Part shown: piece by piece, positions 16,473 to 48,470 of the stretch
Numbering within the stretch: position 1 is the stretch's first letter
Layout: the number at the start of each line of letters is the position of its first letter
From: Octopus sinensis
Taxonomy: Eukaryota
Direction: 5' to 3'
Assembly (NCBI RefSeq): GCF_006345805.1
Contig: NC_042998.1
Location: 81,530,001 to 81,594,000 of the forward strand
Length of the DNA: 64,000 bases
Notes under the pieces: model-generated
The model's database searches: none
Seen by the model: only the letters and a program-made list of their open reading frames with translations
Told to the model about the DNA's origin: nothing
Made by a program: the position numbers and the translations under genes

Positions 16473-16812
16473 ATAAATATACATACATACATACATACAT
16501 ACATATATATATATATATATATATATATATATATATATATATATATATATATATATATTATATAATATATATATATATATATATATATTTAATCAATATA
16601 GGGTGGCAAGGAAAATTTTGTAGAATTTTATTGCCACCAGCGGCCCAGCGGGAAAAAAATTAAATAGTCATAGACCATTTTTAAGTTCAACATTAACATT
16701 AAGGAACGGCCATAATAGGCCATTCACCCACTAGAAATAACAGCCAAAGCTTCTACCGCAAATAAAGATTAATTCCGTAAACAGGAGAAAATTAAAAAAA
16801 CTTTACCCTGTA

Positions 16813-16919
16813 ATTTCTTGTACGGTATACCGTTTCATCCGCTGTTTAATGGTATACTAACCTGATTAAATTAAATCAAGCCAATCTTCCATAAGCCCTC
16901 GGATTCTTCAGCAAGAAAT
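16813..16919 (-). ncRNA. Type I hammerhead ribozyme (array unit 1)
   Basis: AUUUCUUG-CUGAAGA-AUCCG-[58 nt]-CGGAU-GAAA-CGGUAUACCG-UA-CAAGAAAU. Intact core, 8-bp stem I, 5-bp stem II, palindromic stem III, GUA cleavage triplet. Confidence 0.9.
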
Positions 16920-17788
16920 AGCTCAAGACGGAACAGATATATACACGAGGCATACCAATCTTGCCAAGTCAATATCTGACCTAAAATTTTCAAATCGTCG
17001 CACTCGCGCCAAATTTATCGGCAGCAAATAAATATCAGCCGTCGATTCCATTACGGAATTACCAAAAAATTCATAATTAATCAATATAGGGTGGCAAGGA
17101 AAATTTTGTAGAATTTTATTGCCACCAGCGGCCCAGCGGGAAAAAAATTAAATAGTCATAGACCATTTTTAAGTTCAACATTAACAATTAAGGAACGGCC
17201 ATAATAGGCCATTCACCCACTAGAAATAACAGCCAAAGCTTCTACCGCAAATAAGATTAATTCCGTAACAGGAGAAAATTAAAAAAACATTTACCCTGTA
17301 ATTTCTTGTACGGTATACCGTTTCATCCGCTGTTTAATGGTATACTACCTGATTAAATTAAATCAAGCCAATCTTCCATAACCCGCCCTCGCAATATCAG
17401 CAAGGAAGCTCAAGCAGGACGGAACTACCCATTATTCCGGTCCATCCATCTCCTGCCAATTTTCAAATCGACGCACTCGGCAATCCGTGAAAACATTAAT
17501 AAATCGTCAGCAATAAATATCAGCGTCGATTCCATTACGGAATTAACCAAAAAATTCATAATTAATCAATATAGGGTGGCAAGGAAAATTTTGTAGAATT
17601 TTATTGCCACCAGCGGCCCGCGGGAAAAAAATTAAATAGTCATAGACCATTTTTAAGTTCACATTACATTAAGGAAAAGGAACGCCATAATAAGCCATTC
17701 ACCCACTAGAAATAACAGCCAAAGCTTCTACCGCAAATAAAGATTAATTCCGTAAACAGGAGAAAATTAAAAAAACATTTACCCTGTA

Positions 17789-17894
17789 ATTTCTTGTACG
17801 GTATACCGTTTCATCCGCTGTTTAATGGTATACTAACCTGATTAATTAAATCAAGCCAATCTTCCATAAGCCCTCGGATTCTTCAGCAAGAAAT
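17789..17894 (-). ncRNA. Type I hammerhead ribozyme (array unit 3)
   Basis: Same core and stems as unit 1. Confidence 0.88.
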
Positions 17895-18282
17895 AGCTCA
17901 GACGGAACAGATATATACACGAGGCATACCCAATCTTGCCAAGTCAATATCTGACCTAAAATTTCTCATCGTCGCACTCGCGCACAAATTCGCGCAGCCA
18001 AATAATATATCGGCAGATAAATAATATCACAATTAACCTAAATAAAAAAAAATAATATAATATAATCAATAGGGTGGCAAGAAAATTTTGTAGAATTTTA
18101 TTGCCACCAGCGGCCCAGCGGGAAAAAAATTAAATAGTCATAGACCATTTTTAAGTTCAACATTAACAATTAAGGAACGGCTAATAGGCCATTCACCCAC
18201 TAGAAATAACAGCCAAAGCTTCTACCGCAAATAAAGATAATTCCGTAAACAGGAGAAAATTAAAAAAAACATTTACCCTGTA

Positions 18283-18388
18283 ATTTCTTGTACGGTATAC
18301 CGTTTCATCCGCTGTTAATGGTATACTAACCTGATTAAATTAAATCAAGCCAATCTTCCATAAGCCCTCGGATTCTTCAGCAAGAAAT
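18283..18388 (-). ncRNA. Type I hammerhead ribozyme (array unit 4)
   Basis: Same core and stems as unit 1. Confidence 0.88.
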
Positions 18389-44764: not shown

Positions 44765-44829
44765 CTATACATATATATATATATGTACATATATATGTGT
44801 GTGTGTATGTATGCGTGTGAATATATATA

Positions 44830-47800
44830 TATATATATATATACTTTTTTTTGAAAGTCTATTAGGATTGCTTACTACAGTTTTTATGTTAAGTGTAGAG
44901 GTGATCTTTTTTAAAAATTATGAGACAACAAATATTATGAGGATGTTGCTAATCTTTTTTGAGAAGGTTTTGTCTAGTTTGTGAACGCTTTCGTTAAACC
45001 TTTTCAACACACGTGCTCTTAAAGAGGCAGTTGTTATTTTTGTGATAGTGGTAGTATTATTTCCGGTTAATTTTTAGACTTTCGGTTTTGGCCATAAATA
45101 TTCTTTTGCCATTGTTTATTATATGGAGCGTTGGATATTTTCAGTTTAATTTCGGGCTTAGAATTCTTATAAAGTAATCTTATTTTACCTTTCATAGTTT
45201 TCAAAGTTTATTTTGTGAAATGGTAATATTTAAAATTTTCCATTTGGACAGATATATAGATTTTCACGGCATGAGACATTCCTAAGAGATAAAACCCTAA
45301 TTCTATGCTCAATTACACGTCTGCTCAGCTTCCCTCCTTTCTCCCCAATGTAGTTTTCATTGCACTGTGGGCATGTGATGCAGTAGTCTGCAATTCATGT
45401 TTGCATTCACTTTTAATTCCTCCCCATTCTTGAGTCTTTGGTTGTCCCTTGCTCAATTAATTCGCATGTGCCACAACGGGGGTTTCCACATTTGGTTACA
45501 TGCATCGTTTCTTTTTCAAATGTTAACTTCGCCTTTGTTAGGAGTCTCTTGATGTTAGGAGGTTGTCTTCGATTGTTGATAAGTTGTGATGTTTTAATTA
45601 TTCGTTGGGTATTTGGTGATTGATGTAGAATTGAGAGGTACCATTAGGCTGAATGTCGGATGTTGTGATTTCTAGGACTGTGGGTGACTATAAGCGGAGC
45701 AATTGTATTTGTATTTTTATTTTCACATCTAGCCTGAGTGTTTCTCCGTAAGGTAGAAATCGGGATGTCCTTTGTTTTTGTTGAGATAGTTTTGTTTCTG
45801 AAGGAATATATTAAGTTCCGCCAGTCGTTTCTCTCGTGACTATTGAGTATATGCACCTTGTCATATTAAGTGGTATGTTCCTTTTTGTATGGGAAGAGTT
45901 GCAAGATCTAAAATCTAAATATTGGTACGTGTCTGTGTTCTAGTAGTAGAGGTCAGTTGTAACTGCTTCATTCACTTTAATTATCAGGATGTCTAGAAAG
46001 GGGAGTTTCTTTTCATTCATTTCCATATTGAATTGGATTGAGACCTGAATGCTATTTATTAATTAAAAAAAAAATTTAAGGTCCTCTTTATTTCGGTTCC
46101 AGAATTTAAAGCAGTCATTTAAGAATATTTTCCAGTTTCCTATGAGATAGGTTTGGAAGTGGTGGTCAAAAGTAGTTCTGGATAGGGTGTAGATTATTTC
46201 CCCTAGGAATCCCATAACTAGTGTGGCAAATATTGGTGCGACTTTCGTCCTCATCGCAGTGCCTTGTATTTGTAGATAATATTGATTATCAAAGAAGTAG
46301 TTATTTTCCAGTACTATCTGAAAACCTTCATGTATAACTTCTTTTGAGAATCTCTCCTGAATTCTTTTTGGGTACTTGTTTATCCAGAATTCTACTGCGT
46401 CTAGTTCATATATATGGGGAATATTTGTGTAGAATAGATACGTCAAAGCTAACTAGTACTACCTCTTTATCTACCCGTTCTGGGACATAGTTTAAGAAGT
46501 CCATGACATCTATGACGAAATTAGGAACTAATCGACATAAAGGTTTTAAAATTATATCCAACAAGTTAGTTAATCTTTGTATGCTGAATGCTGGTTTTGC
46601 AAAAATCGGACGCAATTTGAGATTAGTTAGTTTAGGATTCTTTCTATATGGAGTATGGACGTCTTTTAAGCTTTTGATGATCTGTCTGTATTTATGAATT
46701 TTAGAAAGTCTGTAAAACTTGTTTGTTTTCTCTTCAAAATTGGTGAAGTAATCCAACTTCTCTTTTGTTAAGTCATTCTTGAATTTGTTGGTAAATTTGC
46801 CAATTTTTCTCATAGATCGTTTATCAGCATTGCTATCTAGTTTTCTGTTGAATTGCTGGTCATTGAGTTGTTCTAAGACCATTTCCCTGTAATGGGCCTT
46901 GTCCATTATTACAATAGTTCTTCCTTTGTCAGCTTTAATGACTATAAATTAGCCTTCTTATAATGTTTTTTTTGTTTCTCATCTGTAATATTCTTTTTTA
47001 CAGGGTTTGCTGGAATGTATGAGTTAGCAGATCTTTTCAGACATACATATTCCTCCAAGTGTTTGTTTCTGATTGTCGGAGGTATAAAACTGTTTCGTTC
47101 TGCCAAGCGATGGATCATCGTTGTGATTGTTTCGAAAGAAGTCCTGTAGGTGAAATTATTCTGCAAAATTCCTCGGTATCTTTTATGTTGTGCTGTGTTC
47201 GATTTAGGAGTGGGTGTGAATTTTAAATCGTATTGTAGAATTTTTATTCCACCTTCCATAAGATTCTGTTGTGAGAAGTTGATTATGTTGGGGTCAGTTG
47301 GTCCAATATTTTCTTGGCTTTTTGTATCATTACTGTTTGCTTTCGTTTTTGTTCGGAGATCTTGTTCCGTAAAAAATGGAGTGAGTCATTGCTACCTTGT
47401 CTCTCAGTCATTCCGTTATGTCTGAAGAGATCTGCCCGGTTGTTGCACCATCTGTCATGATATTTTCGTCTGCTTTTAGGATTGTTGTGTTTTAAAAACG
47501 GGAGAGATTTATTAGTACTAAGTCTCTTAGTCATTTCATTATAGGTTTCCGGTTCAAGGATATCTCTCTCCTTACCACCAGTCATAGAGGTCTCTGTAAA
47601 AGCATGTATACTGCGTTCCCACCGAATAAAGGCTAATCGTACTTCATTTGAAAAATGACTTTCCAAAATGTTTCTAATGTTTCATTGTTGTCTATCTTGG
47701 GTTTTATGTTACTCTGTACCTTGCTATAGACTTTTCGAGAATGGATTACCAAAACATGATTTTTAATATACAGTTTATTTTCCTGAATGCGTTCTGTAGA

Positions 47801-47890
47801 GTTTACAACTATAACGACGTAAATATTCTTGTTTTATGTATTTAAGTTTTTGTAGTTTTGTTTGTTAATTGTTTCTACTGGATTTAATCA
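44830..47890 (-). mobile_element. Decayed Penelope-like element (RT plus GIY-YIG), Neptune-like
   Basis: Minus-strand fragments LKFTPTP, KADKG, LKLRPI, LVSFDVS.L, QIQGTAM.TK.AP, FLNDCF (from FLDD), LPFLDI, a KC-x2-PRC-x-TC Zn-linker and YCITCPQCNENYIGE (GIY-YIG). Confidence 0.92.
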
Positions 47891-47953
47891 TCTGATGGTA
47901 TATATATATATATATATATATATATTATATATATATATATATATATATATATA

Positions 47954-48470
47954 TATATCTAATGTAGGATAAAATTTTTTCGAAAAAATTTTATCAATGC
48001 CCAGCATATTAAAAAATACCTTTAAAAGTTAAAATTATAAACAATTCATAAATAAGGGCAAACGAAATAATTTCTAATGCCAAATATGCCGAAAAATTGG
48101 ACATATTGTCCATTAACCATATAAGTTTTCACAATACGCACGCTACCCGAAAAACGGTGGACAGAAATTCCTTTAAAATTCCATAATTACCATATCGGAC
48201 CGATTTCAGGGTTAGCTTATAACAGCCCTCCCTTCGTCAGTGATACATGTGGCAAAAGAAATAAATGAGATACTTACTCATACCCATGGAAGAAGCAAAC
48301 ACTAAGTCTTGAGCACAATTAAGTACCCCAAATACATCCAAAATAGAAATACTCTAGCCCATTCGAGACACGTGCGATTTGAACTAATGCTCTCACAGAG
48401 TTAAAGAGTCCGGAAGTGAACACTTAAATTTATATCTAATGTAGGATAAAATATTTTCGAAAAAAATTCT
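47954..48470 (-). mobile_element. 477-bp hammerhead-containing unit with ~35-bp terminal redundancy, inside (TA)n
   Basis: tatctaatgtaggataaaat.ttttcgaaaaaatt occurs at both ends. The terminal region is similar to the 16.6-kb unit. Confidence 0.8.
48188..48245 (-). ncRNA. Type I hammerhead ribozyme
   Basis: UAUCA-CUGACGA-AGGG-[18 nt]-CCCU-GAAA-UCGGUCCGA-UA-UGGUA. Intact core and all three stems. Confidence 0.85.

What the first reader, a model, noticed from the sequence alone, without database searches (positions are those of the whole stretch)
16589..48470. Three diverged elements share one design: hammerhead, 220-240 nt, conserved terminal motif, AT-rich end
Seen: the unit ends at 16591-16700, 19131-19210 (mirrored at 19460-19538) and 47954-48060 are alignable (aatttt...ccag/gcccagc...aaaaa...; the 16.6 and 48 kb units also start with an AAAATTTT-armed hairpin). 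Their hammerheads have completely different stem sequences but preserved pairing. The predicted cleavage site lies about 230, 220 and 239 nt upstream of that end, always in the same orientation. Inference: this is one old, diversified family under structural selection, with a 3' RT-recognition signal and (TA)n target preference.
Basis: partly seen in the sequence, partly recalled or inferred. Interest (0 to 1): 0.8.

Follow-up and report, generated by a model that had tools for sequence, protein, structure and literature searches.

The report
Ribozyme retroelements copied from two starts
These are short, protein-free jumping DNA repeats with a predicted self-cutting RNA motif; in copies built of two outward-facing arms, one arm ends at one fixed point and the other at a second point about 80-100 bases earlier, which likely shows how Penelope-type enzymes copy a single, probably circular, RNA from both cut strands of a TA-repeat target.

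Summary
The observation mostly holds. All three elements carry a type I hammerhead fold upstream of a (TA)n-flanked end. They belong to dispersed families of 450-510-bp tandem units (A, B, C; relatives D and E found elsewhere), i.e. non-LTR retrozymes. A, B, D and E are homologous. C is only marginally linked. Spacing is about 207-267 nt, not a fixed 220-240. The 'terminal motif' is the Penelope-like-element (PLE) 'tail' between two fixed ends, E1 and E2. New here: of 68 head-to-head insertions with both ends called, 68 have one E1 and one E2 (one uncalled copy may be E1/E1). The genome's intact PLEs do the same (8 of 8). In family A, all units on both arms of an insertion share one haplotype (68 concordant, 0 arm-specific cases), up to 18 units. 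Best reading (inferred): a PLE protein cuts both strands of (TA)n and primes at E1 and E2 on one monomeric, probably circular RNA, and both cDNAs roll round it. Cleavage, circles and the helper PLE are not shown. Verdict: known element class, with a mechanistic footprint I did not find in print.

The parts
16473..16588 (.). (TA)n/(TACA)n target flank left of the family A insertion
16589..18540 (-). Family A arm 1: about 4 tandem 488-bp units, 3' end E1 at 16589
18521..19111 (+). Family A arm 2 (inverted), 3' end E2 at 19111 (unit position 385)
16589..16691 (-). Family A tail (103 nt between E2 and E1); GCTGGGC at 16643-16649, hairpin at 16602-16638
16813..16919 (-). Type I hammerhead of A (core 16911, H17 16821, long stem II, palindromic stem III); further copies with cores at 17886 and 18380 (-) and 18885 (+)
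   Evidence: fold z -4.7
19112..19130 (.). (TA)n tract shared by the A insertion's E2 end and the B insertion's E1 end
19131..19247 (-). Family B short inverted arm, 3' end E1 at 19131
19250..19750 (+). Family B forward arm: hammerhead (core 19257 with U3-A8, H17 19318, stem III mutated in this copy), internal tail and junction at 19460-19540, start of a second hammerhead, broken off near 19750
47899..47957 (.). (TA)n flank at the E1 end of the C copy; also the 5' flank of an older broken PLE
47958..48468 (-). Family C: one 473-bp unit plus 34 nt of the preceding unit; hammerhead core 48240, H17 48193; E1 at 47958; tail about 47958-48036 with a palindromic hairpin
48485..48495 (+). Possible 11-nt inverted E2 stub of the C insertion (too short to be sure)
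   Evidence: compared by eye with the E2 ends
48496..48577 (.). (TA)n flank at the other end of the C insertion
44843..47898 (-). Broken PLE (RT motifs, cysteine linker, GIY-YIG remnant) next to the C copy; probably an independent insertion into the same (TA)n

Best explanation
These are non-coding hammerhead-bearing tandem retroelements (non-LTR retrozymes) that are likely inserted into (TA)n by a Penelope-like RT-endonuclease, which likely primes twice, at two fixed sites E1 and E2, on one monomeric and probably circular RNA. SHOWN: hammerhead folds; dispersed tandem families; (TA)n flanks; two fixed 3' ends bounding a tail of about 80-105 nt; one E1 plus one E2 per inverted insertion; one haplotype per insertion across both arms in family A; the same end rule in intact PLEs of this genome. 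INFERRED: (1) array transcripts self-cleave and circularise; (2) a PLE dimer binds the tail hairpin region and cuts both strands of (TA)n; (3) each 3'-OH anneals to a short AU-rich patch, one at E1 and one at E2, and one RNA offers each site once; (4) both RTs roll round the template for 0 to about 9 units; (5) the two cDNA ends are joined head to head by repair. A near-zero arm gives an apparently uninverted copy with only E1 or only E2.
For: End rule: A 29 of 29 (28 by anchors), E 13 of 13, C 12 of 12, B 10 of 10, D 4 of 4. Intact PLEs read: P2 6 of 6, P1 2 of 2; their ORFs carry RVT_1 and GIY-YIG. Haplotypes in A (246 unit matches in 38 loci): 86 recurrent variants fixed within an array against 20 mosaic; 68 concordant on both arms, 0 arm-specific; 12 array-private variants on both arms in 10 arrays; 22 haplotypes among 34 arrays; substitutions per site 0.0046 within an arm, 0.0051 between arms, 0.0131 between arrays. 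Arm lengths do not differ by end type (Wilcoxon p 0.88), and E1-only, E2-only and stub arms all occur. Tail pattern: 1226 genome matches against 0 for the reversed control. Literature: a PLE protein cleaves and extends both strands, starts RT at two internal sites that bound the tail, and is predicted to be a dimer (PMC11167929). Metazoan retrozymes form circles, and RT of circles into tandem cDNA by PLEs was proposed (PMC7229834).
Against: No autonomous PLE sharing the tail was found, and the intact PLEs have 32-38-nt tails. Cleavage, circles and transcription are not shown. In vitro, the Anolis PLE showed no start-site difference between strands, used uncleaved RNA, and primed without homology. 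20 recurrent variants are mosaic. 13 of 60 inner 5' ends lie at unit positions 247-290, around the cleavage site at 256 (p about 0.002, window chosen after seeing the data), which may mean some templates were linear. One C copy (L043) may be E1/E1. Most B cores are U3-G8 wobble (13 of 27 read TTGATGA) and may cleave poorly. The haplotype test was run for family A only. Samples are best-scoring copies, not random. The assembly is noisy, and polishing could homogenise units.
Confidence: 0.68

Rival explanations
1. Same PLE-driven dual priming, but on a long uncleaved linear multimer transcribed from an already homogeneous source array; the hammerhead is dispensable.
For: Hammerhead mutants do not affect PLE insertion in vitro, and unprocessed RNA is the main substrate. 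8 of 9 Xenopus retrozyme dimers did not cleave in vitro. Autonomous PLE tandems follow the same end rule with 4.3-kb units.
Against: New mutations would pass on as single-unit mosaics; instead there are 22 haplotypes among 34 arrays, each fixed through the array. By eye the mosaic variants show no consistent register between arms, and several sit at positions 7-19 in a homopolymer. Arms reach 4-5 kb, about 9 hammerheads.
Confidence: 0.17
2. Each arm is copied from a separate RNA molecule (asymmetric dimer, or paired RNAs held by dimeric hammerheads) that comes from one active source locus.
For: Palindromic stem III in all families fits dimeric hammerheads (PMC4209133). One active source would give concordant arms.
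Against: 0 arm-specific variants against 68 concordant cases, despite frequent founding of new haplotypes. It needs a separate reason why the two start sites exclude each other.
Confidence: 0.08
3. A monomer inserts, then expands and homogenises as satellite DNA by unequal crossover or conversion; inversions arise afterwards, or assembly polishing homogenises the units.
For: This model is proposed for retrozyme arrays (10.64898/2026.07.22.740005). A few post-insertion duplications are seen (L071, L096, L142).
Against: It does not explain two fixed ends used once each, nor equal divergence within and between opposite arms (0.0046 vs 0.0051) in young arrays.
Confidence: 0.05
4. DNA transposons: a MITE (B looks like 117-bp terminal inverted repeats in the window) or a Helitron-type element with a 3' hairpin.
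For: Apparent inverted repeats at 19131-19247 and 19422-19538; a hairpin about 10-15 nt before the end; Pif1-like helicase fragments at 40896-41806.
Against: The inversion point varies between copies, the two ends differ (E1/E2), units are tandem, and hammerheads are conserved in one orientation.
Confidence: 0.02

Closest known systems
Metazoan non-LTR retrozymes (Cervera & de la Pena 2020, PMC7229834; Li, Clavereau & Pollet 2026, 10.64898/2026.07.22.740005)
   Same: Non-coding tandem repeats, one type I hammerhead per unit, low GC, dispersed, co-occurring with PLEs.
   Different: Units are 450-510 bp (170-400 nt in the 2020 paper; 51-972 bp in the 2026 preprint). In the text I read, neither paper describes head-to-head arms, two fixed ends, or one haplotype per array. 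Unlike Xenopus, no pLTR homology to an autonomous PLE was found.
Poseidon PLE of Anolis (PAc; Frangieh et al. 2024, PMC11167929)
   Same: Two internal RT start sites downstream of a hammerhead bound a tail; AT-rich target; both strands cut and extended.
   Different: The tail here is about 80-105 nt rather than 30-40, with a conserved hairpin. Start sites sit on short AT-rich patches resembling the target. There is no ORF. The two sites are used once each per insertion, whereas in vitro no strand difference was seen.
EN+ PLE insertion anatomy, including non-autonomous Chlamys such as MRC1 (Craig et al. 2021, PMC8557442)
   Same: Tandem plus inverted 5'-truncated copy, tail often at one end only, microsatellite bias, head-to-tail non-autonomous derivatives.
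   Different: Here the one-sided tail is counted (68 of 68) and tied to a single haplotype. Chlamys and Naiad elements lack canonical hammerheads.
L1 twin priming (recalled, no call)
   Same: Two target-derived primers on one RNA give an inversion.
   Different: In L1 the second site is variable and the two arms copy different parts once. Here both sites are fixed and both arms copy the unit repeatedly.

Membership tests
Non-LTR retrozyme | Type I hammerhead in each unit of a short tandem repeat | tested here: met
   112 intact folds counted in 30 overlapping A loci; 4 in the window's A array (one unit damaged)
Non-LTR retrozyme | No coding capacity, no LTR, GC below 45-50% | tested here: met
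   No ORF of 100 aa or more over the three elements; GC 0.36 (A) and 0.34 (C)
Non-LTR retrozyme | Dispersed multicopy family, monomers to multimers | tested here: met
   counts are lower bounds
Non-LTR retrozyme | Self-cleavage of the transcript | not testable with these tools
   fold prediction only
Non-LTR retrozyme | Expressed as linear and circular monomer RNA | tested here: inconclusive
   only contigs of runs not on record as RNA; circle and tandem cannot be told apart
PLE-mobilised element | Tandem plus inverted 5'-truncated arm, tail at one end | tested here: met
PLE-mobilised element | AT-rich or microsatellite target | tested here: met
   68 of 75 (A) and 37 of 52 (E) outer ends against 3.9% background
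PLE-mobilised element | Terminal homology to an autonomous PLE (pLTR derivative) | tested here: not met
   No blastn or profile match to the 3' UTRs of the PLE loci fetched; only a sample of the genome's PLE families was seen
Autonomous PLE | ORF with RT and GIY-YIG | tested here: not met
   Absent from the units; the adjacent ORF at 45.2-47.7 kb is broken and is not found beside the other C loci fetched
One family A+B+C | Homology beyond shuffled controls for all three | tested here: inconclusive
   A-B met (z 6.4-8.9); C marginal
MITE | Fixed length with identical terminal inverted repeats | tested here: not met
   Variable inversion point, unequal ends

The most novel reading that the evidence does not exclude
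Penelope-type retrotransposition is a two-primer reaction: a protein dimer cuts both target strands and starts at two mutually exclusive fixed sites on one RNA. With a ribozyme-made RNA circle as template, this is double rolling-circle reverse transcription that writes up to 18 clonal units in one event. The ~100-nt structured tail shared by these retrozyme families is a cis-signal evolved to capture PLE proteins without sequence homology to them.
Probability: 0.5. Interest if true: 0.78.

Novelty: new variant of a known kind. Interest (0 to 1): 0.57.

Why it matters
How PLEs integrate, why their copies carry an inverted arm with a one-sided tail, and whether retrozyme circles are the real transposition templates are open questions in the papers read. 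The one-E1-one-E2 rule and the single haplotype per insertion link these questions and give sharp predictions for an existing in vitro system. The element class itself is known, so the value lies in the mechanism.

Tried and rejected
Rfam scan: the 150 listed of 230 matches were all below their gathering scores, almost all miRNA models on microsatellites; no hammerhead among those listed. The repeat finder was swamped by microsatellites. Sequencing runs: no RNA holder listed. Laying four contig sets showed unit-to-unit joints that fit circle or tandem equally; not used as evidence. Helper search: the adjacent broken PLE (44.8-47.9 kb) as partner of C was rejected, because tblastn over the 158 loci then held hit only the window's own locus and L150. 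PLE families P1, P2, the family of the 60-kb fragment and 30 GIY-YIG loci showed no tail homology in their 3' UTRs; three profile hits in PLE loci were taken as separate retrozyme inserts by position and not examined further. A tighter genome-wide tail pattern could not be run, so tail matches were not classed beyond 30 of 1226. MITE and Helitron readings were rejected. Earlier-findings look-ups returned nothing. Literature searches for the end rule or octopus retrozymes listed no paper describing it. Older subscription papers on Penelope are outside the library, and no supplements were read (PMC11167929 Fig. S2 may bear on which arm carries the tail).
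Full report
Setting. The window is G000:C2:81530001-81594000, in a 2.72-Gb, microsatellite-rich animal genome. It looks like an octopus genome; that is my recollection, not a call result.

Observation. A structural scan finds type I hammerheads in A (cores 16911, 17886, 18380 minus; 18885 plus) and C (48240 minus). With a relaxed core it also finds B (19257 plus, U3-A8). Shuffled windows give 0-2 relaxed hits. A is a 488-bp tandem followed by an inverted arm. Genome searches show three dispersed families: A 95-99% identical among listed matches, C about 90-95%, B about 78-90% (lower bounds). 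Scanning the flanks of fetched loci revealed two more families, D and E, with the same terminal motif. A degenerate 19-nt pattern from A, B and D has 1226 genome matches against 0 for its reversed control.

Is it one family? A, B, D and E are mutually similar beyond dinucleotide shuffles: terminal z 3.7-8.9 in 8 of 9 cross-family comparisons, with the window's right-hand B end against E at 0.1; whole units A/B/D z 8.5-9.5. C reaches z 3.6 with A only, and 1.4-2.4, 0.1 and -0.9 with B, D and E. A held-out profile test is marginal. The hairpin before the end pairs GGTGGCAA/TTGCCACC in A, GGTAGTAA/TTATTACC in B and GGTAGTAA/TTACTACC in D. That is two double-sided and one single-sided change (30, 34 and 7 distinct tails): suggestive, not statistical. 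Cleavage-site-to-end spacing runs from about 207 to 267 nt across families.

Two fixed ends. Most insertions are two arms pointing outward, each ending in (TA)n. The arms end at different fixed places. E2 lies about 80-105 nt upstream (A: 488 and 385). Among insertions with both outward ends at a fixed site, one is E1 and the other E2 in A 29 of 29 (38 loci; the others are 5 E1-only, 3 E2-only and 1 running off the fetch), E 13 of 13 (26 loci; 4 more had one end at neither site), C 12 of 12 (29 loci), B 10 of 10 (35 loci) and D 4 of 4 (12 loci). Duplicated loci (L111, L047, L089, four E overlaps) were dropped first. L043 (C) may be an E1/E1 exception. This is the PLE 'tail', described as often at one end only (PMC8557442) and shown in vitro to lie between two RT start sites (PMC11167929).

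The genome's own PLEs. A protein search found young intact families with 775-784-aa ORFs carrying RVT_1 and GIY-YIG. Their cysteine linker suggests the Neptune group (by the description; no tree was built). They carry hammerhead-like motifs 169 and 94 nt before the end and 32-38-nt tails. In the 8 inverted insertions with both ends in view, all are E1/E2 (read). None shares the retrozyme tail, so the helper is unidentified.

One template per insertion. In family A (246 unit matches, 38 loci, columns near gaps masked), 86 recurrent variants are fixed within their array and 20 are mosaic. 68 cases are concordant on both arms and 0 are arm-specific. 12 variants private to one array occur on both arms, in 10 arrays. 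There are 22 haplotypes among 34 arrays of three or more units. Divergence is 0.0046 within an arm, 0.0051 between arms and 0.0131 between arrays. Arrays reach 18 unit matches. This is what a monomer template read repeatedly from two starts predicts. It was not tested in B-E, and assembly polishing is a caveat. Inner 5' ends are scattered, with a post hoc excess around the cleavage site (13 of 60 at positions 247-290), which could be stalling or occasional linear templates.

Mechanism (inferred). Transcription, self-cleavage and ligation give a circle. A PLE dimer cuts both strands of (TA)n. The two 3' ends prime at AU-rich patches at E1 and E2 of the same RNA. Both cDNAs roll round and are joined head to head. 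The main rival is an uncleaved multimer template, since the hammerhead was dispensable for PAc in vitro. RNA data were uninformative.

Papers seen. 10.64898/2026.07.22.740005: parts 1-3 of 5, main text through discussion, supplements closed. PMC11167929: parts 1-2 of 4 plus passages. PMC8557442, PMC7229834 and PMC4209133: passages only. Others: search listings only. L1 twin priming is recalled. Eight searches listed no description of the paired-end rule or of the haplotype footprint; unseen supplements and older Penelope papers may hold it.

Verdict. A real feature of a known class (non-LTR retrozymes with PLE insertion anatomy). The added value is a counted rule that makes the PLE and retrozyme integration mechanism testable. 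Interest 0.57.

Noticed in passing
L194:2317-5911; L198:2305-5906; L190, L191: Young intact PLEs (4.3-4.4-kb units) have a 430-470-aa upstream ORF overlapping the RT-GIY-YIG ORF in another frame. The offset differs between copies and an acceptor-like T-rich AG lies near the start of the second ORF, so an internal intron is more likely than a programmed frameshift. The upstream ORF has no Pfam match above cut-off.
   Followed up: partly
L198 near 6620; L210 3' end; L333-L358 3' UTRs; window 19257: Several autonomous PLE families carry hammerhead cores with U3-A8 in place of C3-G8; family B mostly has a U3-G8 wobble.
   Followed up: partly
window 60080-60990: A second broken PLE RT fragment (+), followed by an antisense piece resembling family D and a further degenerate hammerhead (core near 60923, +) that the scan missed.
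   Followed up: partly
L150:1560-3019: A B-type E1 end is fused directly, without (TA)n, to a 5'-truncated PLE RT region: a possible template jump from PLE RNA to retrozyme RNA.
   Followed up: no
L046, L051, L052, L068, L075, L079, L100, L101, L114 flanks: At least eight further, unrelated type I hammerhead sequences with palindromic stem III appear in about 0.68 Mb of fetched flanks; the genome is rich in hammerhead families.
   Followed up: no
window 40896-41806: Pif1-like helicase fragments (PF05970, PF21530), probably a Helitron remnant.
   Followed up: no
window 53070-53237: A near-perfect long hairpin with a 54-bp duplication.
   Followed up: no
window 8830-10420; 22708-25478; 57086-58331; 61174-62839: A duplicated block (about 834-bp spacing) and several open frames that look like gag-like and RT remnants of other retroelements; by eye only.
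   Followed up: no
family C tails, e.g. L033-L043: The palindromic terminal hairpin of C is often locally duplicated, which lengthens the spacing by 10-30 nt.
   Followed up: partly
one search runs: Family A words occur in runs under three organism labels, so the family probably extends to related species.
   Followed up: no
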